Shown: positions 15,857 through 57,336 of the stretch, piece after piece
Position numbering within the stretch: position 1 is the first letter of the stretch
Layout: the number at the start of each line of letters is the position of its first letter
NCBI RefSeq assembly: GCF_964204645.1
Contig: NC_134026.1
Location: 10,501,950 to 10,565,949 of the forward strand
DNA length: 64,000 nucleotides
DNA from: Tubulanus polymorphus
Lineage: Eukaryota > Animalia > Nemertea
Direction: 5' to 3'
Position numbers and translations under genes: made by a program
Notes under the pieces: generated by a model
Databases searched by the model: none
What the model was told of the DNA's origin: nothing
Seen by the model: only the letters and a program-made list of their open reading frames with translations

Positions 15857-15938
15857 ACAATTAAATATACATGTTATTTGTGATAGGCCTATCGTATGTG
15901 CTCAATATCTAATTTTTCTATATTTTTTTTCATTATAG

Positions 15939-16878
15939 AGAACCATTATTGTCTCCATGAACTATGTACACTATATGGCAAAGAAGAGGTTATACCGACT
16001 GATAGACATCGAAAAGAAGTTCTTTCAGCGTGATATTGAGTTTATATATGGGCATGATGTTTTGTGTGATGGTGAGGATGTACAAATATATGTGTGTAAG
16101 GCGTGTGAAGTAGCTTTGAAGCGGTGGCAGAAAAATAAAAACTATGAAGAATACAATAAAATATTAACATTGTTATGATTGATCAAGCTACAGAGTTAAG
16201 AACACAGTGTAAAAAATGCAAAGAATCATCATTTCCAGTGGATTTTGGGGTAAGTTCGTCTCTTCAGCAGCCAAACATGCTTTATTCACCAATAAGACTA
16301 CCGATGGCTTAACTGTTTCGAAAATCTCTCCAAAATCAAACTTATCGCCGTTAGTGGTTTGGAACATAACCGTGAGAGTTGACTAAACATTGCCCATTAT
16401 GACCAATATAACTGATCCGATAATTGGCCAGATTGCCAAAAACTCAGCAGTGATGACATAGAATCATTATTTACTCATCTAGTCTCATTAAATATATATC
16501 AAGGGCTGACTGGTTTTAGCGATCTGTGTAGAGATAGATTCGAGGCACCTCCGTGGTATTTAACAATCCAAGTGGTGATGTTATTGCTCGTGAAGTAAAG
16601 GACTGTGTGCGACATGTCAACTGTGATATCTTAACGAAGTTCAATGTTGTGTTACTTGTTCGATATATCGACCATCTCTAAGCAAAATGCTGAGTAGGTT
16701 AATGTGTAAGAAAGAGATTGCGAAGCCCACGTCCGGTTACCAGGAATGATTGTTTAATAAAAACATAATTTTAAAAAAATGTGCACAAATAACTCGCCTT
16801 AATATATATATATTGAAAGAAAAATTGAAATCTGTCGAAGAAAAGTGTTACGATAAGATTGAAAGAGATTGCATCCAG
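15939..16878 (+). pseudogene. Decayed N-terminal part of a P-like transposase paralogous to the 37279 gene
   Basis: QRDIEFIYGHDVLCD..IYVCKACEVALKRW, GLTGFSDLCR and CVRHVNCD align with QRDINLIWKIDVKND..YLCKSCDSKIRRW, GIAGFSDLCR and CIRHVNCD; same splice acceptor position. Confidence 0.75.
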
Positions 16879-18900: not shown

Positions 18901-19190
18901 TACATTTCTTCTGTGATGCGCCGCACTAAATGAACATGACACGAAAGAACTTTGAAAAGTCTTGGTGGCATAACAAAACACGGAATCTTGAGGTATTTAC
19001 TTGGTTATATGGTTTTTTTAATCATGATTTTGTTTACCTAGCATTAAAATGCTAATACATGTGAAAATATCTAACAAAGGCGTAATTACTTTACAGGTCA
19101 ATGGTAAACAGCTCAATGGCCTGCAGATATGATGGGAACAAATTGTTAATATTATTCTGATTATTCCAAGGATTGATCGACAGGCACATC
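18901..19190 (+). pseudogene. Decayed central part of the paralogous P-like transposase
   Basis: HFFCDAPH*M...WHNKTRNLE then GT donor at 18993, matching FFCDVPHLMK...WHNKTRNLE|intron at ~39111; next exon LNGLQI*WEQI. Confidence 0.75.
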
Positions 19191-22543: not shown

Positions 22544-22705
22544 GTATGGTGGCTGATTCGCACCACGCCGACATTTTTCGACCACGAAAAATCTCAAAAC
22601 AAACTTTATAGCTAGAAAACAAATATTAACGCGAGAAAACAAATATTTCGGGCGAGAAAACAAAATAATTTGTTTTCTCGCACTAAAATTTGTTTTGGCG
22701 ACCCC
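22544..22705. repeat. Left arm of non-autonomous TIR element with 21-bp subterminal repeats
   Basis: TIR GTATGGTGGCTGATTCG; units GCGAGAAAACAAATATT... Confidence 0.8.
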
Positions 22706-23671
22706 TGCTTAGTTATTCAACTGCTTAAGGTGAGCTCATTCTCTTGATTAATGGTGAAATTATCAAATTAGATAAGGCCTTAACTATGGAACAAACAGCC
22801 TAATTTCACATATTTCATGGGCGGAAATGATGTTTAGAAAGCTAAGCCTATGCCTAAAATCGAGGCCGATAATCCCGCCTTAAATCTGTACTGATTAGTT
22901 TGCTTAAGAATAGCTGTAGACTATACATATATCGAAACATTTCCAAACAGTTAACTTGGCTTGCATGTCAAATTAAAAACTACGGCATCAACAAAATGCC
23001 GGGCGCTTGCCGGTGGGTTCCATTGTTGGAAGATTGCTTAAAAACCTTGATTCAAATCATAGTTTCTAATGAAAGTATGTAATTTTTTTGGTGCATACTT
23101 ATGACGAGAAGTAGTTTTAGCGTAATTTTGAGTAACCTAAATATGACAGTAACATCGAGGTTAATGTTCTAAGAATGAAGTCACCCATTACTTTTTTGCG
23201 ATGATACAAAATCAAACACGCCTTACTGCAGTCGATAAAGAATACAAGATATTTGATAAACAGTAGTAGCGTATCAGAAAATATATATTTAAAGGCGTGT
23301 ATTAGCAATATAGATGAAATTGTATTAGGAAAAAATTGATAATTTGAAGAGACTCAGTGATATGTAATGGATCCAAGAACATTTCCACATATAAAGGTGA
23401 ACGAAAATTAGAAATCAAAATTGAGAAAAGTTCTCCGGTTGCAGTTGATTAGATGATCGTAGAAATCCATAAACAATGGATTTTCTAGATTGTCCCATTG
23501 TAACGCATATACGATAAGCTGTATAACCACTGGCCAAGTGGACTAGTTCTACTTTGATTTCCATGTATTATCATTATTAATCATAAAAAGAATGTATCAT
23601 TCACCCTTTGTATTTTCTTTTTGAAAATTTCGAAACGATAACACAAATGAAGGCTATAGGTGTATTCAGCC

Positions 23672-25965: not shown

Positions 25966-25993
25966 GTACTAATTTGATTTGTGTAATGCAACA

Positions 25994-26260
25994 GTTTTTA
26001 GCCGACTTGGGATTTTAGTCCCTGTGGGCTATTGCATTCACTTTTCGTCCGTCCGTTCGTCCGTAGACAGAATCCAGTTATTGTGGGTGGTTTGGAAGAT
26101 GCTTCAATGGATTGTTATGATAATTGGTTTATACATGTATCTACCTTAGACACATATGCAGCTTAAAAATTGGCCTGATAAGATTCACCAAAATCAGCAT
26201 TCTTACACATTAATGATGCTTACAAGGGAAATTTTGAAGACGCTTCAATCAATTATCTTG
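25994..26260 (+). mobile_element. Helentron-associated non-autonomous element (DINE-1/HINE-like), 5' part
   Basis: TTTTAGCC..GGGCTATTGC hairpin followed by (GTCC)n microsatellite; reverse-strand homologues at ~53000-53266 and ~63720-64000. Confidence 0.7.
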
Positions 26261-26667
26261 GTGTTTCACATATAAAATGGTCGATGTGCACATGTTTTCT
26301 GGGGAAAGTATTTACAGGTTATGACTTGTTATTGTTAGCAGCACTCTCATAGCACACATCTCACGTAGAATTGGGTTTATTCATTTTTATGTCGTTGCGA
26401 AGTTTAATTTTCCCATTTATATTGGTATATATGCATATTATGTGAGTTTCAGAGTCACTTCTTTCTGTATATGTTCACTAGGGTGCGGGCGTTGGATATC
26501 TAATCTATCAATCTGTCACATAGTCAAGCGATTCACCAAACTGAACATGATGTCCCTGGACCCTAGTTTGATTGTGTATCCATCCTCATGATATTCTCAT
26601 AGACCATTCAAAATATCAATTGGCAGTCAGATGTTCAACTGAACTGACCTTGTATTGTAACGACATA

Positions 26668-27047
26668 CACGCCCTACTTTCTCGACCCCGCCAAAACAAA
26701 ACTTAAAGCGAGAAAACAAACTTTATAGCGAGAAAACAAATATTTCGGGCGAGAAAACAAATATTTCAGGCGAGAAAACAAATATTTCGGGCGAGAAAAC
26801 AAAATGATTTTTTTTATCGCGCTAAATATTTGTTTTCTCGCGCTAATATTTGTTTTGGCGACCCCGCCAAAACAAAAGTTTGTTTTCTCACCCCGCCAAA
26901 ACAAATATTAGCGCGAGAAAACAAATATTTAGCCTGAGAAAACAAAATAACTTGTTTTCTTGCGCTAAATATTTGTTTTCTCGCGTTAATATTTGTTTTC
27001 TTGCTATAAAGTTTGTTTTGAGATTTTGCCCGAATCAGCCACCATAC
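26668..27047. repeat. Fold-back array of 21-bp repeats with right TIR
   Basis: Direct and inverted GCGAGAAAACAAATATTTCGG units; ends CGAATCAGCCACCATAC, the exact reverse complement of 22544-22560. Confidence 0.85.
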
Positions 27048-27525
27048 TAATGCGTACTTGTACTGTGCTTTTAACTACTTCACCTCTCTAACTACTTCAC
27101 CTTGTCTAGACCTTTGACCTCTCACATCAATCATCTAGGTATATCTACCCCATGTTATACACGGTAATAAATGAATATATTTAAGGGGCTTGCCCCATAT
27201 TATATATTTATGATGCGGTAACCTCGAATATATTTTTTTCTGATCCAGATACACATGCTTTCTAATGCACCTTTTCTTGAAATAACTATTGGGTCAAGAT
27301 TTTGAAAATTTATGAAGCTCTATTAATTCTAAAATGTGTAGGAAGAGGCTCATATTTCTTTAATTAATTATACTCCATGTACTTTGTATTGTATCAATGT
27401 TTACATACAGGTATTATGATTCCTAAAAATCAAAATGACCCCGTTTATCTCTCGGTTCAAGGCTCTCCGAGTAAGAATGTGGTGTGGTCGGCATGCGTGT
27501 TCTTATAAGTTTCTTTCCTTTTCAG

Positions 27526-28266
27526 TTATAAACTAGCAAATTTTCGCCAATCGTCCAATTATCGGAAGTACAATAAAATTGTTACGGCAGTACTACATGG
27601 CCTTCCTAAATTTGTCATCAAGCATTGCATGGAGAAATTGGAATCTGCATCAGATATTGGAAGGTAATTTTGGTTCACAAAATTTTATCTAGTGACATTG
27701 AAAAGTAGCGGTAAATTATTTACCAGTCGTTTACTATTCATTGTTGCAATTTATATTTTGAGAGAATCGATCAAAGAGAGTGGAGACAAACTTTCATTTG
27801 ATGTTAAGTCACAATCAGGAAATAAGGACTATCACGTGAGTCTTGGAAAAGCTGATGGCAGTTTACCATTTTGCTCATGTTATGATTGGGCACATGCTGG
27901 TTTGCCCTGAAAACACATTTGCGCGGTGTTATCGTATAAGACCTGCCGGATTCTTATTGGAAAAGTCCGTTTTTTGTGTTGGACCAAGACATTGTTGGAT
28001 CGCAAGAACATGAATCTTCAAATGAAATTGTCGATTGTGAAATACATGTTGAAAGTGAAACAGCAGACCCAGTTATCTCTGATGATTGTCTAGCTGAAGA
28101 CCAACATTCAGAAATAAAGGAACTACCTGCTCCTAATAGATACAGCCGAAATTTAGGCTCACTCTGTCGTGAGATCTTAAAACATTTGCACGCAATGACC
28201 TATTTAGTCGAACACTCGTCTACTTCAATGCAAGAACTAAAAAAAAGATTTGGACTTGGTTCTTAA
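27526..28266 (+). pseudogene. Mutator/MULE-type transposase C-terminal region with SWIM finger
   Basis: YRKYN...HGLPKFVIKHC exon; FDVKSQS...YHVSLG...PFCSCYDWAHAGLP*KHICAV (Cys codon mutated to stop). Confidence 0.65.
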
Positions 28267-28278
28267 CAAGTTTCAAAA

Positions 28279-29475
28279 ATGTGTTTGAAAGAAGACTGTA
28301 TTAATGTTTTACCGGAACCAAAGAAAAAACAAGAATCCAAAACTAGTGAAAAGTCTGTCGATTTATGTGACATACGTAGTTTACCAAAACGGAACAAGCG
28401 TAAACATCCATTTTCTGGTCGCCATGGTAAAACCGCTGAGACCATAAAAAAGATGTTCCTCACTAAACTGATTATTGAAGAAATGAGTTCCGAAACAGAG
28501 TTAAAAAAGACTAAAGTTAAAACGGTAGCTGTTAAACCATCACAAAAAACTTCTAAACATTCTCAACCAAACTGCATTATACAAGATCGATCAACTTCTG
28601 GTAAAAATGAGCCTGTTCCGTCAACTTCAAAATATGGTAAAAATGAGCCTGTTCCATCAACATCAAAACTGAATGTGCATGACATAGATACATGCATTAC
28701 GGCAGTAACTCAGTCAAAGCCAAATAAGCGAAAAAAGAGAAAACTTAGTCAAGAAGAAGTAAAGATCATTGAAAATTGCCAGTGGCTGAGCGATGAATCG
28801 ATCAACTTATCTCAAAATATTTTGTTCGAGCAGTTTAAACATTTTGAGATAGAAGGACTCGAAGACACAACCCTCGGTCCAAATCTGTCTTTCTTGGTTG
28901 CAAGAGGGAATTTCGTACAGATCCTGAATTCCCAGAATCAACATTGGGTAGTTATATCAAATATTGGGTGCCATTATGAAGAGGTGAAGTATTACGATAC
29001 TTTGTTTAGTGGATCATTACCTAATGATATACAGAAGCAAATTGCTTCAATTTTATTCTGTGAAGACCGCGAAAATATATCTGTACTTGTGCAGCCTGTT
29101 CAAAGACAAGCTAATGGTAGAGACTGTGAAGTATTGGCTATAGCGATAGCAACATCTCTGTTATTATCGACTAATCCATGTGAGATAGTCTACGATAAAT
29201 CAAAACACCGACACCATTTATTAGAGTGTTTGAAAGCGGGTAAGATCTCAGAGTTCCCAGTCGTTCCGAATAGAACTGTGCGTATCAAGTCGGATATCAT
29301 ACGGATGATATTATACTGCTTTTGTCCTCTTCCTTGGCATGTTAATGATGATGAGGACCCACATTTATATATGGCAGAATGCGAGCGTTGCGGCAAGTGG
29401 TTTCATCGTAAATGTGCTAATGTTCCATATGCTGTTTTTGTTAGTGGTAACTTTTGGGCCTGTCCCAAGTGTTAA
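28279..29475 (+). CDS. Ulp1/SENP-like (C48) cysteine protease + PHD finger; C-terminal module of the preceding element
   Basis: 398-aa ORF: WLSDESIN, QHWVVI (His), YYDTL (Asp), QRQANGRDC (Gln/Cys); PHD YCFC...CERCGKWFHRKC...WACPKC. Confidence 0.8.
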   Translation: MCLKEDCINVLPEPKKKQESKTSEKSVDLCDIRSLPKRNKRKHPFSGRHGKTAETIKKMFLTKLIIEEMSSETELKKTKVKTVAVKPSQKTSKHSQPNCIIQDRSTSGKNEPVPSTSKYGKNEPVPSTSKLNVHDIDTCITAVTQSKPNKRKKRKLSQEEVKIIENCQWLSDESINLSQNILFEQFKHFEIEGLEDTTLGPNLSFLVARGNFVQILNSQNQHWVVISNIGCHYEEVKYYDTLFSGSLPNDIQKQIASILFCEDRENISVLVQPVQRQANGRDCEVLAIAIATSLLLSTNPCEIVYDKSKHRHHLLECLKAGKISEFPVVPNRTVRIKSDIIRMILYCFCPLPWHVNDDEDPHLYMAECERCGKWFHRKCANVPYAVFVSGNFWACPKC

Positions 29476-35363: not shown

Positions 35364-38300
35364 TTCCGTATATATGGGACCCGTACAAAACCGTCGCGAC
35401 CTTTTATCATGACGAAATTATGTCGAACAAACGTGATATATCACGATTTATCGACATAATTAAGTCGATATATCGTGTTAATATCACGATAAATCGTTAT
35501 ACGGATCACGCCTTTCACCAATGTCGACGTCTGTATCTCAACATAACCGCGTACCGTCGACATAATTATCACTCCTTTAGCTAAAATGTCGTGATACGTA
35601 TGGCAATTTATTGAGACAATATCGCAAAAAGTCGACATAAAAATCACGACATTTTAAATAAGGTCTTCCTAGTTACATCGATATATTGAGATAACCTAAT
35701 TTCAATAAGGGGACGCATACTTAATGATGTTTAATGTTAAATGAATATGAAAGAAGAAATAAAGTTGGCAGAAAAATTAAAATGACTTTATCATCACCAG
35801 AATCTGGTGGACATATTGAATGTTGGGGTTCAAGTAGAATGACCCCAAATGCTGGGGCACAATAATAGTGTTCGGAATATGGTCGATGAACTAAATAGGT
35901 CATTCGCATCAATACTTTGTCACAATTGATTTGCGGTATATTTTGGATTACTGTGTATGTCATTTGTCAGGACATTAAACAGTAGACGACTTAGGATACT
36001 ACCTAGCGTGACTCCACTAGTTAGACCGACTTATTCCAAGATGAGGCGTTCCGTTGATTTTGGCTATAAGTTTTCGTTCAGAGATAACTGCTGAGCCATT
36101 TGGGCGACCTATCATTGATACTGTTTCCTAATAGCCTGTTTAGTTAGTAATGGCTGATGTTGTGCCTTATCAAATGCTTTGTCGAGATCCACCGATGAAC
36201 AGGATTCTAAGACAGCAGAAAACCCGTTATCGCTGCTTTGCAGCTATATTTATTATTATTATTATAAATCTTCCACTTTCCAGCCAAAAATTCTTCATAA
36301 AATGTAACTCCTCTCAGATTCGACTACTAACAGCTAATAAGCATAATTTTAAATTATAAAAGTAATATAACTCAGCGCCTGAGCATTTCGAATTTGCATA
36401 TTGTAATTAATTATGAATAAATTCCGCGTAATTATTGGGTCTAAAGAGCATGAGAATGTCGCAAGCATCATCATCCATTGATAAATCTTGGAGTAATCAT
36501 TTGACTGGAGAGAGCTTGCCTAATCATTCGCTATACGCACTGTGGTCTATTCATGTAGCACCACTCACCGATCTCACTCGTAGCAACGGCTCACCGCTGA
36601 CACCGCGTCGCTTTACGGGAAGCTTTACTACCAGTATGCGCAGACGGGCTTAATCGAATACGACCTATTTAACGCATGCGCAGTTGTTACAAACATGTCC
36701 GCACCGTTGTGAAGATTTTATTGGAAAAAGAATCGTCAAAATCGACAAATATTTAAGGAAATTACAGATTTTTACCATGCTTTTCACAAACAGTACTCAA
36801 TTGAATGTAAGTGAAAAAGAATTCTTCATCAAATTAAAACCCGATTCTTCCGGATAATGGCACATACATCATATTAGAGATCGAGAGTTGATGATAATGA
36901 AATAGTAAATGTCTTTGTGTTGCACTTCGTCGCGAAATCAATATTTGTAATGAAAATTCCCTAGTTACTGTGGTGGTAATACAATATCCTCACTGATGAT
37001 AGACTTATCATTTCTGGCCATTGGCGTTGTTGCTTTGCCAGAATCATATTCAAAACCGTTTTATCAAGTTAATTATATTCCTAGTCTATTTGTACTCCCA
37101 CTCAACAACATATTATTTATTATTATTCACTTACTTTAACCTTTTTTTCAGTTAGACTTTTGTTCTGATTGCTTGTTTTGTTTGCATGCTAGTCTATCTT
37201 CAATTATTGCAAACATAGGCTTTACATCATACAATTAGAAAATAGATTTTTTTAATATGTGCTTTTATATTTTTGTAGAGGAACATTCATGCATAGCTTT
37301 GTTTTGTCGGATATGTGGCCAAACACGTGCACTGATCGCCGACAGAAAAAAACAAATAAACAAGGAAACTCATCAACGAGATATTAACCTGATATGGAAA
37401 ATTGATGTGAAAAACGATCCGTCCAGTTATCCTCCGTATTTATGTAAGTCTTGCGACTCAAAAATAAGGCGATGGCGGAAACGAAAAAATTCAAAAATAT
37501 GCTCAATAACGTCACCGTTGAAATTAACGACTGGGCCGATAATAATGTTACGTGTCGTAGCTGCATCCAAAATGTCGACAGTCTTTCCCAGGAATTTCCG
37601 GACAGTTTTGTGCAGAGATTTAGTGAACTAATTAACCCGAACCAATTTTTTGTCAACGTGTCCCAGGAAAAATTAGCGGCATCGCAAAATGTGAGCCTGA
37701 ACGATTTGTGTAAATATGTTTAGATAAACCGCCATTTTCAGACTGCAGTTTGGGTCTATGGTCACGAGATTAACCTCGAGAAGTTTCGAATTCCAAAATG
37801 TGTGTCGGCTGATGAAGATTTAATGTTATTTGTGAAACTTGTATCAAGCTGGAATGTACGCGCTGGAATTGCTGGATTTTCTGATCTATGTCGATTGCGT
37901 GCTCCGACTCCAACAGCTGTTTCTACAGATCGAAGTGGTGAGACAGTTGCCAGAGAAGAAGTTAATCCAGTGCAGTGTATTCGCCATGTCAACTGTGATT
38001 ATTTTTCCTTGAACTTATTGTGTGATGCCTGTGAAGGATAGAAGTCGACTCTGAGAAGTCTTAAATCTAAAGCTGAGAAGAAAGTTGAATCCAAACCGAC
38101 TGCATCATCTCATCATCGAAATGACTTAATGTCCAGAGCAGATTTATTGATGAAAATGAAAAATGTGCAACAAAATAGACAATTTTGGAAAAAAAGAGCA
38201 AAGTCATTATCAGAAAAAATTGAGCAGAAAATTGAAAACAAAGGAGTGAATTTGAAATCTAAATTAGGTAAGTCATTGAGCCAAGTCATCCAAGATAACC

Positions 38301-39730
38301 CTCCTACACCTGATTCAATCGCTGAATTACTCTGGCAACAGCAAGTGACATACAACAGCAAAAGCGAAAAAAGGCAGATGCGCTGGCACCGTTACTCATC
38401 AAATGGTGCATTGCTCTGCAAGCCACATCGAGCAAAGCGTATGATCTTCTCTGAGACTCAAAAATTCTCCATTTGCCACACAAAACAACCTTGAGAGACT
38501 ATACACATCACATTGATACGAAAATCGGATTTTCACAGCAAATCTTGGAATTCATAAAATCGGACATTTCTTTTGATCGCTTACTACCCTTTGAGAAGAA
38601 TGTGATCATTGCTTTTGATGAAATAAAAATCAAAGAAGGCCTAGCATATTCTTCCGAGACTGGAGAATTAGTCGGATTTGTGAATTTTGGAGACTATTTA
38701 AATGAAATCGAGGAGTTAGATTCCGAGAACACTTCACCTGCCCATGCAACGCATTGTATATCATTCATGGTTCGCAGTATTTTCAAACATTTTAATACTG
38801 TATTTGGATATTTCCCGTGTGTTGGGTTCACCAGTCACCAACAATACGTTTCAGTGTGGGAAGCCATAAAAATTCTGGAGATTAATGGCTTCCATGTAAG
38901 AGGCATTGTATCCGATGGAGCATCAGCTAATAGAAAATTCTATCGAATGCATGGTTCGGAAGAATCGCCTGAAAATGAAATATTCTTCTCGTCAAACCGA
39001 TATCGTCCGGGATCGAAAATATACTTTTTCTGTGATGTACCTCATTTAATGAAAACAATTCGAAATAATATAGAGAACTCGAATTGGCATAATAAGACAA
39101 GGAATTTAGAGGTAAAAATGAATGTAAAATATGTTGGCTTATCGATCTTCACATTCATATATTCATTTTTTTTCAATTATATTTTGGTACAGTTGAATGG
39201 TCTGCCTATTCAGTGGACTCAATTGATCAGATTGGTGGAAGAAGACTTGGGCATTCAAGTATTTAGAGATCAAAATGGTGATTTTCAGGAAAACAGAAAC
39301 AATGTTGGCCAGTTGAGGCTACTTCCACGGCTGACCAATGACCACTTACGTTTAACGCCAGGATCTCGTATGAATGTAAAGCTAGCAGCGCAGGTACAAA
39401 TTCTTAATGAAACTTATCTTATATTTCTTTATTTTATGATATACTACTAGTAAAACTCTCCACGATAAATTATGTTTTAGGTGCTCAGTGGCTCTGTTGC
39501 TTCAGCCCTAAAACTGAAGGGTGATCCTCGTCTCGAATCGACACGAAAATTAATAAAATACATGAATCGATTTTTTGATTGCTTGAATGTGTCAAATACT
39601 GTTGATAGTATTCGTCAACGCAATAAATATATTGCACCATTCACAAGAGAAAACCTGGACAGATTAGATGTAAGCATAATCTTGGAGTCAGTCGAGCATT
39701 CAGTTAATAAACTTGGTTGCTAAAGATTGC

Positions 39731-40850
39731 AAATTTTTTGACGCCTTATAAAACGTTACCATTATGAAACCTAAACAATGTTAACCATTCAGCGTCATTT
39801 TACAAACGACAACCGTAAATCGATGTGCAAAACGTCACAGGTTTATGTGTACACATACAAGCTATTTGGCAAAATATTATTGAAAAAGATGTAGAATGGC
39901 TCCCTGGGATTATATAATGACCTCTATTTGAACGTCGAAATGTTATATCGTATTGAATATCATGAGAAGACGTATTGTAATAGTAAAGGATGTATGATTA
40001 TATCAGGGGCGGCAGGGATAAATAGAAATGATAAGTAAATCGGATTATTCGGTTAAATGGCGGATGTATACACGATTTGGAAGTCTGATATAAAAGTCAG
40101 ACCCTGACATGGGGATGCTAGTGGAATGACGAAGCTATCTACGATCTGAGTTGGGCCGGCGTGAATTTCATCGGCGGCTACAAGCGGTCTATATAAAAAC
40201 GTGTAAACATATAATTTCAATATTCAAATGGTTTAGAAAATATGTTCGATATTAGACGTATGCAGGTTTCATGAGATTAGCAATTTATAGTAGCATAGCT
40301 GTCATATACGGCTCCGCGTCCGCTGATGGCATGTGTATAAGGTGACAATTAAATTCAATACTTTATTGATCCTTATTACATTGAAATTCCGGGATAAAAT
40401 TCCAAAAATCAATACATTTACAAATTTTAAAATAAGAAAATACAAGACACACAGGTAATTCATACAGAATAACATGAAGAAGTTAATTATATGACAATGT
40501 CTACTTCAACCCAGACTCAAGTCTATGATATCAAGTGACAGCCAGACCGGGCCCCAGGACCGGGCTGGCTGGCTACACGATATGCTCAAAGTCATGATGA
40601 AGCAGACATCAGAAGAGCTCTTTCTTCAACCATGGAGGCAATGAAGTTGCAGACCAGCTTAGAGGCAAAAGTGAATCGAAGTCACAAGTTGACAATTTTT
40701 CTTTTATTAGACCAGTCGAAGACTGTATCATCTACCCAATCGCCAAATCTCATAATTCCCGAAATTTCTTAAAACTTCGATTTCAAATTTGCAATTCCAC
40801 ATTAGCTTATACCAGAAATTCTACATTTTTTCGCAGGCGTCAAATAATTT
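39731..40850. mobile_element. ~1.1-kb non-autonomous element with short TIRs, in P-transposase intron
   Basis: Ends TTTTTTGACGCCT / AGGCGTCAAA; full-length inverted homologue at 51012-52115. Confidence 0.8.
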
Positions 40851-41199
40851 ATTAAAGTTAATTTTCTTGTTGATTTCTCATTTCTTTCAGTGGTTGGAGA
40901 ATAAATTATAATAATATTTATTTCGCAATGTACATATGCAAAACAATTTACATACATACGAGGCTGGATGCTTGGAAAGCCAATGGAGGCTGCGTCCCAT
41001 AGGGATCCAAGCACCCAGAAAAAAAGATCAAAATTTAATGAAATAAGGTAGAATGAGGGTGAAATGGAAATGCAAAATGGGAGTAATCTGTCCGCTGTAG
41101 AAGTTTTAGATACATCAGTTTGATTCATTAACTTCAAAGAATTGTGCTTTAAATGACTTAAGACCAGAATTGGATTTGGGTTCAATAGCCATTAAAAGT

Positions 41200-43110
41200 G
41201 ATTTCCTTAAATCTGTTTATTAGAGTGTGGACTGTTGGAGCATTTTTGATTGAGGAATTTTGAGTTTGCCAGATAATTGGTATTTTTCCAAGAAAAAATC
41301 TATTATATAAACTTGATGAATAGGCAGCAACTCTCGGATAGTCTCTTTGTCTAGTATTATAGTTGTGGTTGAATGAGTTTTTTTGAAAGATAGCAAGAAT
41401 GGGCTAGTTAGGAAGGCTAGTTTTAGTATATCTATAGCCAGTTTTAACCAATTCCAGTTTGATCAAGTCGTCAAGCTTCAAGATTTTCATAATTTTTTAT
41501 ACGTCTAATTAAATACAGGTTTTTGTTGATTTTTGAAATTATACTTCGGACATGCTCTTCAAAAGTTAAGTTCTCGTCAATATTAAGTCCTAGTAAAGTA
41601 AAGCTAGTCACCCTCTTTATTGTGTCATTTCCAAATTTTAGTTCTATATCGTCGAAATTTACTTTAAACGACCATGGTTTAAATGGCATATATGCTGTTT
41701 TGCTGATATTCAGGGTTAATTTATTTGCTTTAAACCAGTCAATAATAGAAATTAAGTCAGATTTGACATTTTGCACAAGTAATCTCAAATTTTTTCCACT
41801 TGCTACTAGTGTACTGTCATCTGCAAAGAGAATAGATTTACAATACTTTAGGGACCCCGACAAATCATTTGTATAAATAATAAAAAGCAGTGGCCCTAAA
41901 ATTGAGCCCTGTGGTATTCCAAAGTCGACATTTTTAATACGGGACTTAGCATTTCTAAATTCAACAAACATTTTTCGATTTTTCAGGTAACTTGTGAACC
42001 ATTTTAGGGCTGTTTCCCGAATTCAAAGATATGATAGTTTAGATAAAAGAATGTCAATGTCTAGTGAATCGAATGCTTTCGAAAGATCTAAATATATACT
42101 TAACATAAATTGTTTAGAATCAATGCTGTCTATGGCATGACTCAAGAATTCTGATAGGGCATCGCAGGTCGAGTGATTTTCTCTAAATCCGTATTGACTT
42201 GGATAAAGTAAACTAAATCTTTTAATGAAAGTATATAGCCGTTTGTGTACTATTCTTTCAAGAACTTTTGATAAAACTGGCAAAAGAGAAATAGGTTTGT
42301 AATTATTCATATCGTCCTTACTTTTATTTTTGTATATAGGAATAACTTTGGCAATTTTCATGCTGGTAGGGAAGTGACCTTCAGCCATTGACTTATTGAA
42401 TACTACAGTGAGTGGTTCAGCTATTTCATGGCCAATGGACCTGATCAAAATATTGTTCAAATCATCGTGTCCACAGCTCGATTTACTTGGGAGATTAATA
42501 TAACTTTTAATACCTCGTTAGAATCTGTGGGGAAGAGAAAAATAGAAGATTCATTACGGTTTCGAAGATATTTGTCAAAAGATTTATTTGGTATGGGAAT
42601 ATTTGAAGCGTACGATTTACCCGCCGTACTAAAATAATCATTGAATGAATTACTTATTTCAAGTGGTTCATTGATAACCCTCCCACTCACAGTAAATGAA
42701 TCGGAAGTAATACTGGTTTTATCATTTTGTTTCCCAATGATTTTTTTTGAGAAGCTCCAAAGTTGTTTGGCATTATCTTTATATGTTAGAATTCTTTTGG
42801 CGTAATATGCCTTTTTAGCTCGACGTTTGATGTAGTTCAGATTATTACGATAATTTAAGTACGCGATATAACGAGGATCGGTTTTATTTAAGCTAATGAC
42901 TTTTCTATAGATTCTATCTTTCTTTCTGGTAGCTTTACATAAGCCTGTTGGCATCCATGGCTCAATGATAACAGTTTTTTTATAGGTATTTGATATACAG
43001 GGGGAAATGTCATCTAATACAGTTTTAATGTTTTCAATGATATGATTGTATCCCTCTTCGCTACTTAGATTATTAATTTGGTTCCAGTCCTTTCTCAAAA
43101 GGGAATTTCT
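41200..43110 (-). mobile_element. CR1/L2-group LINE ORF2 (RT) fragment in P-transposase intron
   Basis: EPWMPTGL, KIAKVIPIYK, YKPISLLPVLSKVLER, QYGFR, DLSKAFD, GIPQGSILGPLLFIIY, FADDS, NKLTLNISKT. Confidence 0.92.
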
Positions 43111-43707
43111 GATATCAAAAATTTTTTTTTTAGATAGATCTCTATAAGTATATTGATGAGTAATTCATACCATTCTTTGAAAATTGGGAAATTCAGTGTC
43201 TCCAAAAAGTCGATTTGCCAATCAGATTACGAAGAAGAATGTGTTTAAGTCGAGAAACACTTCAAGGATTGCGAATAACTGGTAAGTTTCATTGATGGAT
43301 ATCATATTATTTATTACATAAACAATTACACTGTATGTACATATACATAATACATCGTATGGTTTGAAATTAAAATCTATATGAAATGCTTTGTTACAGT
43401 CAAATCCGCTGTCAATTTGATTAAAGAGCTTTTGAACGAAGATGGTGTACAGTACGTATTGACAGCAAAATTTAATCAGGACCCGTTAGAAATATACTAT
43501 AGCAAGCAACGTAGATGTGGAGGCTCAAATGATAACCCGTCTGTGAAAGAGTTTCAACAAAATGCAAGAAAACTGCTTGTTGCATGTTCCAAGACAAAAA
43601 AAAGGTTCTTCGAGAGGAAACTGCACAATCGTTCAAGAAAATGGCGACTCAGTCATAAATTCAGCACCTATACCTAGACGAAAATCAACTCATTAAATGG
43701 TAAAAAT

Positions 43708-45355
43708 TCAGTGACACTCATTCTGAGTTTTTAATTTTTCTCTTAAACATTTTTCTCGTTTTTTGGCAGTTTTACCAGCTTTCTGTGACAGGTACATGTA
43801 TGCGCGACTGAAAGTATGAAGTCGCACTGTAACCCAGCAGTCAACCACTTTAGCGAACAACGAATCTTTAATTGAATGACATTCTGCATTTGCCACCAGT
43901 AATGACCAGCTTGTTTGTATTGAATCATCATTCATAACTGTCTCTTCAACAGTTGAACGCAAATCTTGACGAAGTCTCATAACATTATTTGTCTTTAATA
44001 TTGGATTGATAATAGTTTCTAACATTTCAAAGAACCTGTATGCAGTCGCTGACATCTCGAATAAACCCCCCCTGTTCACAATTTCTGTCCATTTCTTGGT
44101 ATATACCATGAAATTTTGTGTACTTGACACTCCTGGAGACACTTTCCATAACTTTAATAAGTTCGTAAATATATGTGCACGTTGATTTTTACATTTTCTG
44201 TAGTGATTAATCAGCTTAGCAAATACATAACCACCCAAATAGTACACGACTTGCTTTTCAGTCTCTGTCAAGGTCAAATTACCTGCATTTATTTCCAGTG
44301 ATTGTTTATCAGGATTTTTGTGCCTTTTTTTCAGAATTTCTTTAAGAAGATTTTCAAGAATTATCTGTATGAGAAAATGGTCACTACCCATGGGAGGAGT
44401 TTCTGATACTGTTTTGAACCTTTGTATAAAATTCATGGCTGGTGCCGAAGTAGCTCTCCATGAAATTTCGAAAAGACTGCGATTTGTTTTTTTTGGAAAC
44501 TGTGTTTCATTGTCACCCGCTGTCACAGCAATCCAAATTTTTTCCAAAAGTTCCGTTAATAATTGATTTAAAGCGTCTTTATAATTTGGGTTTCAATTAA
44601 TTTTAAAACTGTGGTAGCATTTTCCAAAAGTTCCGAATTATTTATAACCGAGTTGAGAATATCCTTTACAGCATCACAAAATAGCTGAATTCTTTCCTGT
44701 TGGAGCTCACTCAATGAATATTTTGCCTTGTCTGAAAATGAAATAATATGATGTTAAAATATTATTATTATATATTATATAGGGCAATTAATTATTAATA
44801 TTAAATTATTATTAAAGCAAAAAATAAATATTTTAAATCACCATGCGGGAATACTTACTCTGGAAGTTCTGAGTTCTTTTTTTCGTTTTCTTTACTGTAG
44901 GAACATTTGATTTCTTCTGAGGTTTTACTTGTAGCTCTTTGTCTTTGACCTTGTCATCCTTCATCGAATTTGAGGAGTCTTTCAGAAAAGTGTGTTCAGC
45001 AGCTTGCCCCACAAGAAAAAACAAAATATCTGTACTTACAAACGATTATTTATATGAAGATGATTAGATCCAGATGGAGAGACAGACAATTCAGAAATGA
45101 CCAACCTTTTTTGCAATTCGAACACAGAAAAACTCCGGCGTTCTCTTCCAATCGTTTTTTCAAATTCGGCACACATGACATATGATACCAAACTGTGCTG
45201 GAAGCGTGTGATTCGCACGCAATGATATCGTCTAATTCTTGAGACTTACATGTACAGTAAATTTCAAATAAATTAGAAAAATCACTGTCTTCCGATTCGG
45301 AATTATTCTCAAAATCAGATTGACTAAACCTGTACGCTATGTCATCATTCGCCAT
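43708..45355 (-). pseudogene. Spliced partner gene of the P-like element: N-terminal ING-type PHD finger plus helical domain of unknown function
   Basis: Exon 45355-45106: YCTCK..DDIIACESH...WYHMSC...FLCSNC; last exon contains VVYYLGGYVF and WTEIVNRGGLF; stop codon about a dozen bases from the transposase 3' end. Confidence 0.75.
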
Positions 45356-45859
45356 TTTGTCGAGTGTTATTGACTAGTTGCTAAGCGCCGAGTTAAGCTG
45401 AGTGCTGACGGAAATTGCCGAAGTGGAATCCCTGCCCACTGTGTAGCAGGTGCGCGATGATTGACTGCAACTATGATACGCTGCGCGAAATGAATAGGCG
45501 AGCTCTCTCCAGTCAAATGATTACTCCCAAGGATAAATGTACATCCCGAAAAGCCTACAAATTACCGGACGACCTTGAGCTTCAAACTCAACCGTAAATC
45601 ACGGATTCAGACATGGATTCGGACTAACATCAGTCCAGAACTGTTATTTACCACGAACAATAACTACAGCGGTGCTCTCTCTCTCTCTTCAAACAACAAT
45701 CTTTTATTCTAAATCTAATCACTTCTATAGTTCTTAGACTGAACCAATACTAATACTAGACTGAACAAAGATCCAGGATATACAGACAACGAAGGCGAGC
45801 CTTTAAACAGCTCAGGAGTTTATTTCACCGACATTGGTATTATTGTTTAACAGCGTTCT

Positions 45860-50744: not shown

Positions 50745-51011
50745 TGAATGAATGATTAACCCCTTATTACATGATTAATACATAATATTACTATATTCGC
50801 AATTTCCAGATTTTATCATCCTTGAATCAAAATACGCACGCAGCGCACGTCTCCCAATCTCATCTGTGTTTGTTTTTTTACAGCACACGTGTGATAACTA
50901 TGCTGTACGTTCCCACGGATTTCCGTAGTACAATAGCGACATATAAGGGTCTATGTGTATAAACTAGCTCCAACCTCTAAATCAGTGTTGAACAAGAAAA
51001 TTGATTCTAAT

Positions 51012-52115
51012 AAATTTTTTGACGCCTGCAAAATGAAGAATTTTTGGGATAAGCTAATGTAGAATTGCAAATTTGAAATTGAAGTTTTAAGAAATTTGGG
51101 AAATTATGAGATTTGGCGATTGTAGATGATACAGGTCTTGCCGACTGATTTTTTTATTGAAAATTGTCAATAATTGATCACATGTGACCGACTTCATTCA
51201 CTTTTGCCTCTAAGCTGGTCTGCAACTTGCCTCCATGGTTGAGGAAAGAGCCCCCTTCTGATGTCTGCTTCATCATGACTTTGGAGCATATCGTGTGGCC
51301 TAGCCAGCCGGCCGGGTCCCCGGGTTTGACTGTCACTCGATATCCTCTTGAGTCTAGGTTGAAGTAGACATTGTCATTTAAAATAACTTGTTTATGTTAA
51401 TCTGTATGAATTACGCATGTGTCTTGTATGTTGTATTTTCTTATTTTAAGAATTGTAACTTTATTGAATTTGGAATTTTATATGTTATAAGGATCAATAA
51501 AGAATTGAATTGTCACCTAATACACAGGGACGCGGAGCTGTATATGACAGCTATGCTATTATAAATTGCTTATCTCATGAAACCTGCATACCCCTAATAT
51601 CGAACATATTTTCTATAACATTTTAATATTGAATTTATACGTAAACACATTTTTATATTAACCGTTTGTAGCTGCCGATGAAATTCACGCCAGCCCTACA
51701 CAGATCGTAGATAGCTTCGCCATTCCACCATTATCCCCATGTCAGGGTGTTACTTTTATATCAGACTTCCAAATCGTGTATACATCCGCCATTTTGACCA
51801 AATAATCCGATTAACTTATCATTTCTATTTATGCCAGCCGCTTCTGATATAATCATACATCCTTTACTATAACAATACGTCTTCTAATGATATTCAATGC
51901 AATATAACATTTCCACGTTCAAATAAAGTTCATTATATATTCACAGGAAGACATTCTACATCTTTGTCAATAATATTTTGCCAAATAGCTCGTATGTGTA
52001 CACATAGACCTGTGACGATTTGCACATCGATTTACGATTGTCATTTGTAAAATGACGCTGAATGGTTACCATTTTTTAGGTTTCATAATGGTAACGTTAT
52101 AAGGCATCAAAAAAA
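51012..52115. mobile_element. ~1.1-kb non-autonomous element, inverted copy of 39731-40850
   Basis: Colinear reverse-complement similarity along its length; TIR TTTTTTGACGCCT / AGGCATCAAAAAA. Confidence 0.8.
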
Positions 52116-53266: not shown

Positions 53267-54960
53267 ATTAGTAAAAGTTGATTGTATCAAGATTATAAAA
53301 TGGTTCTCTTTTTGACTCGGTTCTTTGTAAAGAGTAAGCTGAAACATAATTGTTGCTTTTCTGTGTTGATTCCTTGGGTAAAAAAACTTATTATCGGTAC
53401 TAGACAGCGGTTTCTATCAAAATAATTTTAAAGGAACCGGTACATGTTTGGTCTAAGCAGATTTCACATTTGCGGCCATCTGAAACTAAGGCCCGACGTA
53501 CAGCAACAGTGCTCAATCCCCGAACTAATAATAGGCCTATTCGCTTCCACTATGTTCGCAAGAAGTCGATTAACACGTTGACTGCCATCTACGAGATATC
53601 TCGTAGTAGCAGGTGTACCGCTCCTTGCCACTACGAGATATCTTGTAGTAAGCCCGGAGTGAATGAATTCATTTTTTTTCTGTTTGGCAATGTGGATAAC
53701 AACATAAATCGAAGTCTGGTAACTCAGATAAACAAGTAATTTTTAAAAAATCAATAACTAACTTTTTTATCAATTCTTTATTTATTTATGAACATCTAAA
53801 AAATCAAATTATATTACGTGATTATTTTCACATCAAAGTTTATAAGGCATCAAACGCTTATCAAATACCTTTCCTAATTGGAAAGAAATGATTCACCTCA
53901 CTGTGAATCGATAATAAACATAGAACGATAGAAATTATAGCATTGTTGTCATCTTTAGTTTTGTACATGGTATCTCCTGAAACAAGGGGTTACACATAAT
54001 GCTGGTTTTCCAGGACAGACATCACAAACGTAACGTGTTTCTTTGCGGTTACCATCTCTTCTGCAAATGCGACATGGCTTTGTGGGGTATTGCTTTCTAT
54101 CTGATGGGGGAACACATGCAAGATAGTGAAATGCTGCTGGAACATCTGGGTTTAGGGGAGGGGGAACTAATGCAACTGGTGCCAAGGCGGGGATATCGCC
54201 AAGCAAATGTTTGACGATGGCTTCACGGAAAGCTAATATCTGAATTGAGTCATTTGCATCATTGTAAATCATATGTGCATTGACAATGCTCATTTCTAGT
54301 ATGTGCAAACCAATCTTTTTATACCAACGCCAGTGGCGGATTTAGGGGGAGCACGCGGGGCACGTGCTCCCCCCCTAAAAGTCACAGCAAAAAAAATTGG
54401 ACCTACCTTTTCAAGCCAAATGAGTAAAAAAAAATTTTGGGGGGGATATTTGGGATTCGAACCCTTATGCCTTCTGCTCAACTGGATGTAAACCAGCCAC
54501 TAGGAAGTAAATGCATGTAAAAAATAATTTCTCTGCCGCAATAAAATGATCATCTAACTTATATAACGCTTCTAAGGTATGTATAATTATATTTTTGTAA
54601 AGTTCTATTATTTATTCTTCTGTGTATATAGATTGCATTAAATTATGTGAGCCCACAAGAGAAATATTGACATTTCTATATATTAAATAGTCTGTGAAAA
54701 ATCCCCTCGGCCTCAAGTTGAAGTAGTCGCGGACTATTACTAATTACATGTACCATTATCAAGGAGCTATGATGTATTTATAATTGAATGTTTATCATAG
54801 ATAAGGCCAGTTCTGATTTCACTTTTGAAGTGTGAAATAGACATTGGCTTGCAAGCTTTCTGCCAATTTTTCAACTTGACGAACCAGTGATGAGTTGATC
54901 ATGATTATCATATGCGAATTTGTTGAATTATTCTTATTTGTGTGTTTTTTTATTTTGCAG

Positions 54961-57336
54961 ATGAAAAAGCAGACGAGTATTTCTTCGTTCTTTGGATCCA
55001 CAAGTACCGGTCTAGATGCTAGTGTAAGAAAACAGGGAACTGATGAAACATTCACCCCTCCACCCGCACCCAAAAGAACAAAAAATGACATTCCGATTCC
55101 ATCTGATAATTGTGATATTGGATTAATTGAAGACATAGCTAGCCTTAATGCCGATGAAAAGTATAAATTATTACGGAAACACTTCGTTCCTGGTGAAAAT
55201 GACAATTTCCCGACGACTCTATACCAAAATAAGAACAGGAGGTTTAGTGTAGATTGGCTAACTAAAAAGCAATATGCAGGCCTGGTATATTCAAAGGCCA
55301 AAGAAGGCGGGTATTGTATATATTGTTGTCTGTTTGGGTCAAGTGATCTCGGAATACTATCTACATCTCCATTGACGCATATGAAACACGCCCATGCTCG
55401 ATTAGGGGCTCATTACGGAACTGATAAAAAGGAACCAAAAAAAACTCACCTTGAGGCACGTGAAAAGGCATTGCAGTTTCTAAATGTACATGAAAACAAG
55501 CAAAAAACTGTCGTGGAGCTGAGTAATAAGAATGCTTTAGAAAAGATAGAAAGAAACCGTACTGTCTTATCATCCGTGATAAAAACTGTCTTACTTTGTG
55601 GTAGACAGAATATAGCACTGCGGGGCCATCGAGATGATCCTGATATAAATTCCGGAAATTTCCAGGCATTAATTGATTTCCGTATGGATGCTGGGGATTC
55701 TGTTCTCTCGGATTACCTTGCCACCGGACCAAAAAATGCCACATACCGTTCAAAAACAATCCAGAACAGTATAATCCTGGCCATTGGCGATAACATTGTC
55801 GGAGATTTGATTAATGAAATCAAAAGCTCACAATTTTACTCTATATCAGCTGACGAAAAAGCGGACACTTCACACAGTGAACAACTAAGTGTGGTTGTGC
55901 GATTTGTTGATTGCAACAAAGATATCAGAGAGGTTTTTCTTGGCTTTGTCGAAGTATCAAGTGATACAACTGGATTGGGATTGTCTTCAATAATTAAGAA
56001 AACCCTTGAAGCTTGGGGTTTGTCCCTCGAAAACTGTAGGGGTCAAACATATGATGGCGCTGGTGGAATGGCTGGTGCTCAAAGCGGATGTGCTGCTCGA
56101 ATAACTGCTGATTTTCCACTTGCAGTGTACACTCACTGCTACAGTCATTGCTTGAACTTGATTCTCAACGACTGTGCTAAAAGCACATTAGTTAGAAATA
56201 TGGTGGACTGTGCAGAAAAAGTCTATAAATTCTTCGACAATAGCCCCAAAAGAACAGATTATTTGGAAAATGTGATCAAAGAGGTATGCCCTTCAACGAA
56301 ACAGAGACTGAAACAAATGTGTAGGACCCGTTTTGTTGAGCGACACGATGCATTCGAGGTTTTTGTTGAGCTCTATCCAGCGATTGAAAGATGTTTCAGC
56401 GATATGTCAACCTCACAGAATTTCAACCGTGAAACCACCAGTGATGCCACGACGCTTTTGGCAGCTATAACACAATTCCAGTTCATTGTGACCCTGATTA
56501 CTGTCAAAAACTGTATGGGCTATACAAAAGGGCTTTCAAAAAAGCTTCAAGGCAGATCTGAAGATATCTTGTCAGCATACAACAGCATTGAAATTGTTAA
56601 GGCAACTATCAAATCGGTTCGTTCAGATATAAATGCAGTATTTAGTAGCTGGTTTGAGGAGATTACAAATTTGGCAGCACAGAATGGCATAGCACCATCA
56701 AAACCACGTACCTGCAACCGTCAAACTCAGCGTGGAAATTATCCTGCTGATACACCTGAAGAATATTATAGGAGAACTCTTGTTATTCCATACATAGATG
56801 GTCTTATCAGTGGACTAGAAACCAGATTCTCTACATTGAGTGTCATTGCTTCAGAGCCACTGAAGTTAATTCCAACAAATGTGCAGAATACCACACTTAA
56901 TGATCTGAAATCGTTCATCAATCAGTACAAACAAGATTTGCCATCCCCATGCGGTATAAGTTCCGAACTCCTCCTCTGGAAAACTCATTGTTCTCAAGTC
57001 ATTGCTAATCTAGGGAAAGATGACAAGAAACCCAATACTGCAGCTCAGGCATTGAAATTATGTAATGAGGACGACTTTCCAAATATCTTTATGATGCTGA
57101 AACTAGTTTGCACATTAGGTGTGACAAGCTGTGAGTGTGAGCGGGCAAACTCTGAACTTGGACTACTCAAAACATATTTGAGAAGCACCATGACCCAGTC
57201 CAGAATGAATGGTTTAGCATTGATGCATGTCCATTATGGACTTACCTCTAAAGAAGGCTTTATCGACCGGGTAATAGCAACATTCAGCAGACAAAATGCC
57301 AGGAGAATGGTTTTAAATAATATAATTGATGATTGA
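54961..57336 (+). CDS. hAT transposase (ZMYM1/THAP12-like: TTF-type Zn finger, DUF4371, hATC dimerisation), intact 791 aa
   Basis: Uninterrupted ORF; CIYCCLF, ALRGHRD, SKTIQN, ISADE (D), GQTYDGA (D), HCYSHCLNL, TRF, CERANS (E), LKTYLRSTMTQSRMNGLALMHVH. Confidence 0.93.
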   Translation: MKKQTSISSFFGSTSTGLDASVRKQGTDETFTPPPAPKRTKNDIPIPSDNCDIGLIEDIASLNADEKYKLLRKHFVPGENDNFPTTLYQNKNRRFSVDWLTKKQYAGLVYSKAKEGGYCIYCCLFGSSDLGILSTSPLTHMKHAHARLGAHYGTDKKEPKKTHLEAREKALQFLNVHENKQKTVVELSNKNALEKIERNRTVLSSVIKTVLLCGRQNIALRGHRDDPDINSGNFQALIDFRMDAGDSVLSDYLATGPKNATYRSKTIQNSIILAIGDNIVGDLINEIKSSQFYSISADEKADTSHSEQLSVVVRFVDCNKDIREVFLGFVEVSSDTTGLGLSSIIKKTLEAWGLSLENCRGQTYDGAGGMAGAQSGCAARITADFPLAVYTHCYSHCLNLILNDCAKSTLVRNMVDCAEKVYKFFDNSPKRTDYLENVIKEVCPSTKQRLKQMCRTRFVERHDAFEVFVELYPAIERCFSDMSTSQNFNRETTSDATTLLAAITQFQFIVTLITVKNCMGYTKGLSKKLQGRSEDILSAYNSIEIVKATIKSVRSDINAVFSSWFEEITNLAAQNGIAPSKPRTCNRQTQRGNYPADTPEEYYRRTLVIPYIDGLISGLETRFSTLSVIASEPLKLIPTNVQNTTLNDLKSFINQYKQDLPSPCGISSELLLWKTHCSQVIANLGKDDKKPNTAAQALKLCNEDDFPNIFMMLKLVCTLGVTSCECERANSELGLLKTYLRSTMTQSRMNGLALMHVHYGLTSKEGFIDRVIATFSRQNARRMVLNNIIDD

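What the first reader, a model, noticed from the sequence alone, without database searches (positions are those of the whole stretch)
36487..45531. P-superfamily transposon with RAG1-like N-terminal zinc domain and ProtoRAG-like convergent two-gene layout
Seen: ~36-45-bp TIRs, 7-bp TSD GATAAAT, P-type DDE core, and no THAP domain. The N-terminus reads CRICG...KIDVKND..PPYLCKSC...DWADNNVTCRSC (last part after a frameshift). Established: RAG1's central non-core domain reads CRICG...RIDVKAD..HPTEFCHNC...EWHPHTPSCDIC, and a related Chapa domain occurs in Chapaev transposases; ProtoRAG has tail-to-tail RAG1L and PHD-bearing RAG2L genes. Here a PHD-finger gene also lies tail-to-tail inside the TIRs. 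Inference: a possibly undescribed P lineage that swapped THAP for the RAG1/Chapa module and pairs with a chromatin-reader partner, bearing on modular domain exchange in RAG origins. The termini start CTTGG rather than the usual P-element CA.
Basis: partly seen in the sequence, partly recalled or inferred. Interest (0 to 1): 0.85.

Follow-up and report, generated by a model that had tools for sequence, protein, structure and literature searches.

The report
Split P transposon, RAG1-like zinc finger
This is a broken 9-kb P-type jumping gene whose cutting enzyme lacks its usual tail domain, while a second, facing gene encodes a protein predicted to fold like that tail and likely works as a separate subunit, and the enzyme starts with a zinc finger likely related to the one at the front of RAG1, the antibody-gene recombinase.

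Summary
The element is real: 36487-45531, 39-nt arms 95% complementary, 7-bp target duplication confirmed by 86 empty-site reads and a second insertion site. Gene 1 is a decayed P-type transposase with no THAP domain, and it stops right after the catalytic core. Gene 2 is not RAG2-like. It is a PHD finger joined to the P-transposase C-terminal domain (CTD): the top structural match is the Drosophila CTD (Z 12.0, 2.2 A, 118 of 118 residues). It belongs to a large stand-alone family (993 clusters), linked to CTD-less transposases in 3 of 13 related loci. So the transposase is split over two genes. This scan found that layout before on other DNA (7 notes). I found no paper on it, and could not search Repbase. 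What is new here is the N-terminal zinc domain. It belongs to the ZAD/RAG1-ZFa class; weak evidence puts it closer to RAG1 than to solved ZADs, and ligands for a second zinc site recur in a diverged copy nearby. Split relatives in another clade carry THAP, so the domain was probably swapped. The second zinc site and the trans action of gene 2 are untested. The ProtoRAG likeness is analogy.

The parts
36480..36486 (.). left 7-bp target-site duplication GATAAAT
   Evidence: empty-site joint, 7 letters fit either side
36487..36528 (+). left terminal inverted repeat, starts CTTGGAG
   Evidence: other junctions at this end
37281..37564 (+). gene 1 N-terminal zinc domain: H-x-C at 37284, CxxC at 37305 and 37443 (ZFa/ZAD-like), -1 frameshift near 37484-37503, CxxC at 37553 (candidate ZFb). 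Follows a likely intron acceptor; first exon not identified
   Evidence: PDB profile; ESM
37565..38454 (+). gene 1 middle domain, coiled coil and HTH region; stops at 37721, 38039 and 38452, frameshift near 38388
   Evidence: (tblastn with P0001/P0002)
38455..39669 (+). gene 1 RNase H N-part (FDE at 38614, VSDG at 38908, CDVPH at 39031) and GTP-binding insertion; introns 39112-39192 and 39394-39480 inferred from homology and GT-AG ends
39734..40870 (.). nested high-copy repeat in the intron that begins at 39670 (84% identical to window 50968-52114); right edge approximate
40908..43161 (-). nested non-LTR retroelement fragment (RVT_1) that splits a gene 1 exon between WLENK (40891-40905) and FIPF (43164); AATT on both sides; absent from one X1 contig
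   Evidence: (record 3)
43164..43696 (+). gene 1 last exons: end of GTP-binding domain, intron 43282-43399, QDPLE motif at 43477, frameshift near 43600, basic tail, stop at 43694-43696; no C-terminal domain
43708..44592 (-). gene 2 main part: helical region plus P-transposase C-terminal domain (YLGGY at 44244, RGGL near 44070, basic last helix); frameshift near 44590; its stop lies 11 bp from the gene 1 stop
44593..45355 (-). gene 2 first exons: ATG at 45355, acidic stretch, PHD finger 45113-45259, basic linker; two introns inferred
45489..45531 (-). right terminal inverted repeat
45532..45538 (.). right 7-bp target-site duplication GATAAAT
15933..16700 (+). second, more decayed relative: same likely acceptor position, H-x-C-x4-C, second CxxC, RW, third CxxC; a core fragment lies at 18900-18992 beyond a retroelement

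Best explanation
This is a decayed copy of a cut-and-paste P-superfamily transposon whose transposase gene lacks the C-terminal domain (CTD), while a facing second gene encodes a PHD finger plus a domain predicted to fold like that CTD, and the two products likely assemble into one working enzyme. Shown: the ends, the 7-bp duplication, other insertion junctions, the P-type core, the missing tail, and the homology of gene 2 to the CTD. Inferred from the Drosophila structure: gene 1 supplies the RNase H and GTP-binding core that cuts at the TIRs, and gene 2 would dock between the RNase H and GTP-binding domains and contact the looped transposon strand and, with its basic last helix, the target DNA. 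Inferred with less support: the PHD (C2H2 in some relatives) would steer or regulate that target-contacting subunit on chromatin. In this clade the N-terminal THAP domain was likely replaced by a zinc domain of the ZAD/RAG1-ZFa class, possibly with a second zinc site, which would serve dimerisation or end binding. The copy in the window is dead.
For: Gene 2: AF2 model pLDDT 87.7. Top Foldseek hit among 350,542 chains is 6p5a_B, probability 0.97, E 0.13. Top VIA hit among 48,161 chains is 6p5a_B, Z 12.0, rmsd 2.2 A, 118 of 118 residues (617-734), next row Z 9.0. Family profiles hit 6p5a_B at E 0.048 (rank 2 of 5) and 0.0081 (rank 1 of 6). Pfam Tnp_P_element_C is hit weakly by 3 of 143 members and by the L006 and L009 partners. 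Complementarity: 6 of 6 homologs I checked with a complete 3' end stop 68-80 residues after the QDxxE motif; the gene 2 profile hits 0 of 13 transposases; the core profile hits 0 of 150 gene 2 relatives, which are 127-535 aa long. Linkage: partner convergent in L004 and L006 (near-identical elements) and divergent in L009. The close relatives P0002 and P0018 share a longest-contig length of 7,412 (a hint only). CTD role: PMC7776569 passages. 7-bp TSDs in Galileo and 1360: PMC3698922 passages. Swap: L004 has THAP (28.2 bits, cut-off 23.9), a CTD-less core and a convergent CTD gene; the window groups with P0001, P0002 and P0003 at 100/99; P0003 has the same first finger.
Against: The CTD match is near the level that helical bundles reach by chance (note: up to about 13), and no single sequence or Foldseek E-value passes 0.001; the case rests on four searches naming the same chain. 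10 of 13 loci show no partner. Nine of them are short, cut near the transposase or decayed, and I did not check each one's reach; L012 has 1.2 kb downstream with no hit. No intact copy of this family was seen: the X1 contig that opens three breaks has an 8-nt deletion. The PHD is present in only 8 of 150 relatives by pattern, 7 of 16 among those of 400 aa or more, and is degenerate here. The tree is unrooted, so it does not give the direction of the swap. The N-terminal domain scores as zf-AD in Pfam.
Confidence: 0.7

Rival explanations
1. Gene 2 derives from the CTD but now acts as a regulator or repressor (it competes for the core or the DNA, or counters silencing through its PHD), and the CTD-less core transposes alone.
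For: Gene 2 swaps N-terminal modules (PHD, C2H2, none) and changes orientation (L009), as accessory genes do. The two stops lie 11 bp apart, so the transcripts would overlap.
Against: [quoted passage not shown]
Confidence: 0.2
2. On the N-terminus only: it is a generic single-zinc ZAD-type dimerisation domain picked up from a host gene, and the extra H-x-C and CxxC are not a RAG1-type second finger.
For: Pfam gives zf-AD 27.6 bits and no RAG1_imp_bd at E up to 1. P0003 has no third CxxC. The residue at the position of RAG1 H206 is Asn, and the N-terminal His sits 7, not 8, residues before the first Cys. With four sequences in the profile, RAG1 NZD drops to rank 10 of 13, E 1.4.
Against: With two sequences, RAG1 NZD (21wb) is the top PDB hit, E 0.039, sharing the IDVK-x-D word, and none of the 14 rows is named as a ZAD. 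The first named ESM cluster is RAG1_imp_bd (32% of 73 members, score 0.88, a lead only), against zf-AD at 0.76. H-x-C and a third CxxC, 34 and 35 residues after the second, recur in two copies about 45% identical; RAG1 has 32.
Confidence: 0.4
3. The element is a ProtoRAG-like system and gene 2 is a RAG2-type partner, with shared descent of the two-gene layout.
For: Tail-to-tail genes inside TIRs, a PHD finger, and an N-terminal zinc domain of the RAG1 class.
Against: The core is P-type with a GTP-binding insertion. Gene 2 is all-helical with no beta-propeller and matches the P CTD. Its PHD is N-terminal and optional.
Confidence: 0.02
4. Gene 2 is a chance passenger or an unrelated neighbouring gene.
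For: Linkage was seen directly in only 3 of 13 loci, from two families.
Against: It lies inside TIRs confirmed by empty-site reads, encodes the very domain that gene 1 lacks, and recurs next to distant P cores.
Confidence: 0.03

Closest known systems
Drosophila melanogaster P element transposase (PDB 6P5A/6PE2) and vertebrate THAP9
   Same: HTH, split RNase H with GTP-binding insertion, D..D..E triad with D-x2-H, and a CTD fold
   Different: The CTD is on a separate gene with a PHD finger and an extra helical region; no THAP; 7-bp, not 8-bp, TSD; termini CTTGG (the usual CA start is recalled, not checked)
Galileo and 1360/Hoppel (P superfamily)
   Same: 7-bp TSD (PMC3698922 passages)
   Different: Described there as intronless; this element has introns, two genes and no THAP. 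I did not compare their sequences.
[quoted passage not shown]
   Same: CRxCG first pair, IDVK-x-D..P-x-x-x-CxxC second pair, a third CxxC at similar distance, a His before the first Cys
   Different: No His at the H206 position, H-x-C before the first Cys instead, no RING, and attached to a P-type core. The fold was not confirmed.
ProtoRAG / RAGL transposons
   Same: Convergent two-gene layout inside TIRs; second gene with a PHD finger
   Different: Different catalytic superfamily; the partner is a split-off CTD, not a Kelch-PHD protein

Membership tests
P superfamily | P-type DDE RNase H core with D-x2-H | tested here: met
P superfamily | GTP-binding insertion domain | tested here: met
   window fragment E 0.0018; closest homologs above cut-off; tblastn colinearity
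P superfamily | TIRs and a 7-8 bp TSD | tested here: met
canonical P element / THAP9 | N-terminal THAP domain | tested here: not met
   a zf-AD-class domain stands there instead
canonical P element / THAP9 | C-terminal domain in the same polypeptide | tested here: not met
   gene 1 ends about 70 residues after QDPLE; the CTD homolog is gene 2
RAG1 NZD / Chapa domain | ZFa: four Cys in two CxxC pairs with helices H3 and H4 | tested here: met
   four Cys present; zf-AD-class score; profile match to 21wb over the second pair. This feature is shared with ZAD.
RAG1 NZD / Chapa domain | ZFb: a second zinc site from N- and C-terminal ligands (H, H, C, C in RAG1) | tested here: inconclusive
   H, C, C, C available in two copies; H206 position is Asn; a frameshift separates the halves; P0003 lacks them
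RAG1 NZD / Chapa domain | NZD fold with two zinc ions, monomeric | tested here: inconclusive
   only the first finger could be modelled, pLDDT 57; fold searches gave nothing above Z 3.0
ProtoRAG / RAGL | Transib/RAG1-type catalytic core | tested here: not met
   core is P-type
ProtoRAG / RAGL | second gene is a Kelch beta-propeller with or without PHD | tested here: not met
   helical model matching the P CTD
ProtoRAG / RAGL | convergent two-gene layout inside TIRs | tested here: met
any catalogued Repbase/Dfam P family | sequence match and recorded architecture | not testable with these tools
   neither library is offered

The most novel reading that the evidence does not exclude
A P-element lineage carries a true two-zinc NZD/Chapa domain, making it a third transposase lineage with this domain and the first outside the RAG/Transib/Chapaev group. 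It also works as an obligate two-subunit transposase whose free target-DNA-contacting subunit reads histone marks through a PHD finger, reaching RAG1/RAG2-like logic by a separate route.
Probability: 0.25. Interest if true: 0.82.

Novelty: new variant of a known kind. Interest (0 to 1): 0.62.

Why it matters
Two papers say that the Chapa/NZD domain is confined to RAG1-like and Chapaev transposases (PMC4411706, passage; bioRxiv 10.64898/2026.01.24.700457). A P-type carrier, with one-finger and possibly two-finger forms in one clade, would show that the domain moves between unrelated transposases and would give a test of the proposed ZAD-to-NZD path. A naturally split P transposase also makes the role of the CTD directly testable: it can be added, withheld or given another reader domain, which may matter for target choice.

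Tried and rejected
No whole genome is held for this window. Word-index search for gene 2 relatives: 0 of 223 candidates passed; the full HMMER library found 993. Word-index search with the N-terminal profile: only P0003 among 27 candidates, so no RAG1L or Chapaev sequence could be fetched for a direct comparison. Single-sequence PDB search and ESM search with gene 2: nothing useful. The model of the first zinc finger was low-confidence (pLDDT 57, 4 sequences); Foldseek gave no E under 1, and VIA gave best Z 3.0 with two ZAD chains at 2.5 and 2.1 among 15 rows; uninformative either way. Viral and prokaryote contig scans found no relatives (L014 is a 24-residue match that I disregarded). No RNA holder listed, so introns rest on homology and GT-AG ends. 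TIRs were not found for L004, L006 and L009, nor for the second relative in the window. A programmed frameshift between the two zinc halves was considered: both window copies shift by -1 there, but stop patterns place the shifts at different A-runs and the relative has other shifts, so independent decay is favoured. Literature searches that showed no split or NZD-bearing P element: (listings), plus term searches. Repbase Reports and subscription journals are not covered. The supplements of the NZD preprint (its table of Foldseek hits) were not seen and could list P-type proteins.
Full report
The element. The 9,045 bp between 36487 and 45531 end in inverted repeats. The arms found are 39 nt and 95% complementary, and they extend to the termini with one extra G on the right. 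The best 39-nt match is 37/39, against 19-23 in 20 random pairs. GATAAAT flanks both ends. In a DNA run of the same species label, 86 reads from 56 starts skip exactly 36480-45531, with 7 letters that fit either side; 3 contigs of another run do the same. The flank is a high-copy repeat, so these are probably empty paralogous sites. A closer look shows three more left-end junctions and a 55-bp mini-copy whose two loose-end rows give GTATAAT on both sides. The ends and the 7-bp duplication are therefore real, and the family has moved. Read depth inside is about that of the unique right flank, so full-length copies are few. Galileo and 1360 also make 7-bp duplications (PMC3698922, passages).

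Nested insertions. About 3.4 kb is foreign: a high-copy repeat in an intron (from 39734, 84% identical to 50968-52114) and a reverse-transcriptase fragment on the minus strand that splits an exon between WLENK and FIPF, with AATT on both sides. One X1 contig joins 39739 to 43162 and so lacks both.

Gene 1. Pfam finds the P-type RNase H N-part (4e-24), the GTP-binding insertion (0.0018 for a fragment) and the RNase H C-part (6e-9). The closest of 13 proteins found are from Mytilus (59%), an unnamed assembly (57%) and Amphiura (42%); the last hits Drosophila transposase at 4e-13. The acidic triad motifs are present. The copy is dead, with three stops, at least three frameshifts and the retroelement. 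Other reads open some breaks but carry others, so no intact copy was seen. The key anatomical fact is that gene 1 stops about 70 residues after the QDPLE motif, with a basic tail like that of P0001. All 6 homologs that I checked with a complete 3' end stop 68-80 residues after it. Drosophila transposase continues into a C-terminal domain, residues 617-734 in the structure.

Gene 2. It runs from 45355 to 43708 on the minus strand, and its stop lies 11 bp from that of gene 1. Its main part has 993 relatives at E up to 0.001; the best 150 are 127-535 aa long, none carries a transposase core, and named ones come from a hemichordate, echinoderms, a lancelet and mussels (30 looked up). A model built on 143 of these sequences has pLDDT 87.7 and is almost all helix. 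Its top match is the Drosophila CTD chain 6p5a_B in Foldseek (probability 0.97, E 0.13) and in VIA (Z 12.0, rmsd 2.2 A, 118 of 118 residues; next row 9.0). Sequence profiles reach the same chain (E 0.048, rank 2; E 0.0081, rank 1), with the YxxGY and GGL motifs aligned. No single score is overwhelming, and helical bundles can reach such Z values by chance, but four searches name the one domain that gene 1 lacks. The gene 2 profile finds nothing in the 13 transposases. Among 13 related loci, a gene 2 homolog lies tail-to-tail with the transposase in L004 and L006 (one family) and head-to-head in L009. The other ten show none; most are short, and L012 is a real miss over 1.2 kb downstream. The PHD is an add-on: 8 of 150 relatives have it by pattern, 7 of 16 among those of 400 aa or more; P0024 and L006 have a C2H2 finger instead. 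Here it scores below cut-off and has Ser at the fourth Cys. Gene 2 is thus not RAG2-like.

The N-terminal zinc domain. No THAP is present. Pfam scores the region as zf-AD, 27.6 bits against a cut-off of 28, with no RAG1_imp_bd hit. The NMR preprint on RAG1 (10.64898/2026.01.24.700457; parts 1-4 of 6 read, supplements not seen) defines the NZD as a ZAD-like C4 finger (ZFa) plus a second site (ZFb: H102, H206, C210, C213), and names Chapaev as the only other lineage that keeps it; it never mentions P or THAP. A ZAD score therefore does not exclude kinship. For kinship: a two-sequence profile ranks the RAG1 NZD structure first (E 0.039) with a shared IDVK-x-D word, and none of the 14 rows is named as a ZAD; the first named ESM cluster is RAG1_imp_bd (32% of members, 0.88), ahead of zf-AD (0.76). 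Against: with four sequences RAG1 falls to rank 10 of 13, the ESM score is below 0.9, and the model and fold searches were uninformative. For a second site: a diverged relative in the same window (15933-16700) keeps H-x-C before the first Cys and a third CxxC 35 residues after the second pair, against 34 here and 32 in RAG1. Against: the H206 position is Asn, the His is one residue closer than in RAG1, and the intact Amphiura protein has the first finger only. H, C, C, C would fit the preprint's type II pattern of two N-terminal and two C-terminal ligands, but that is my inference. I put a two-zinc NZD-like domain at about even odds.

Domain swap. L004 carries THAP (28.2 bits, cut-off 23.9), a CTD-less core and a convergent CTD gene. 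In a tree of 20 core sequences the window groups with P0001, P0002 and P0003 at 100/99, apart from the THAP-bearing loci. P0001 and P0002 begin downstream of the zinc domain and cannot be scored. The tree is unrooted; THAP as the older state is inferred from canonical P elements.

Mechanism. [quoted passage not shown] A domain that already acts across subunits could be split off. The most likely working model (0.7) is a two-subunit transposase: gene 1 binds and cuts the ends, and gene 2 supplies the CTD in trans, with a variable reader domain that would tie target capture to chromatin. Binding and function are untested. The main rival is a regulatory role for gene 2 (0.2).

Novelty. Eight literature searches showed no split or NZD-bearing P element, but Repbase and Dfam could not be searched. 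[quoted passage not shown] This scan has seven earlier notes on split two-gene P elements in other genomes, which I saw after reaching that reading; a word search for RAG1, Chapa, ZAD and THAP together found none. These notes are unchecked and are not counted as support. Verdict: a new variant of a known kind, interest 0.62. The split is well supported, the RAG1-type domain is a reasonable but unproven lead, and the ProtoRAG parallel is analogy.

Noticed in passing
window 15933-16700 and 18900-18992: A second, more decayed element of the same zinc-domain P clade, interrupted by a minus-strand retroelement; ends and gene 2 not found.
   Followed up: partly
window 37484-37503 and about 16150-16160: Both copies shift frame by -1 between the two halves of the zinc domain, with colinear DNA across the spot, and no read or contig shows an insertion there. 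Independent decay is favoured; a programmed shift giving a short one-finger product is not excluded.
   Followed up: partly
window 36487-36522 (loose ends): A 55-bp mini-derivative made almost only of the two TIR ends, flanked by GTATAAT; seen in runs X5, X2 and X3.
   Followed up: partly
L009:4371-8617: An apparently intact pair with an open 952-codon transposase frame and the CTD gene head-to-head, a second layout of the split system.
   Followed up: partly
L006:3326-6084: Another element with long inverted repeats sits just upstream of gene 2 and holds a THAP-like ORF and a SWIM/YqaJ-like ORF (read by eye).
   Followed up: no
window 11674-15328: SWIM/YqaJ-like ORFs on the plus strand facing THAP-like and DDE-like ORFs on the minus strand, by eye an ISL2EU/Harbinger-type two-gene element.
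   Followed up: no
window 22544-29472: Arrays of short inverted repeats (22544-22700 against 26700-27050) around a HECT-like fragment, next to an ORF with a peptidase-like region and a PHD-like end (by eye).
   Followed up: no
window 54880-57333: A long open hAT-like transposase frame (818 codons) between piggyBac-like fragments (by eye).
   Followed up: no
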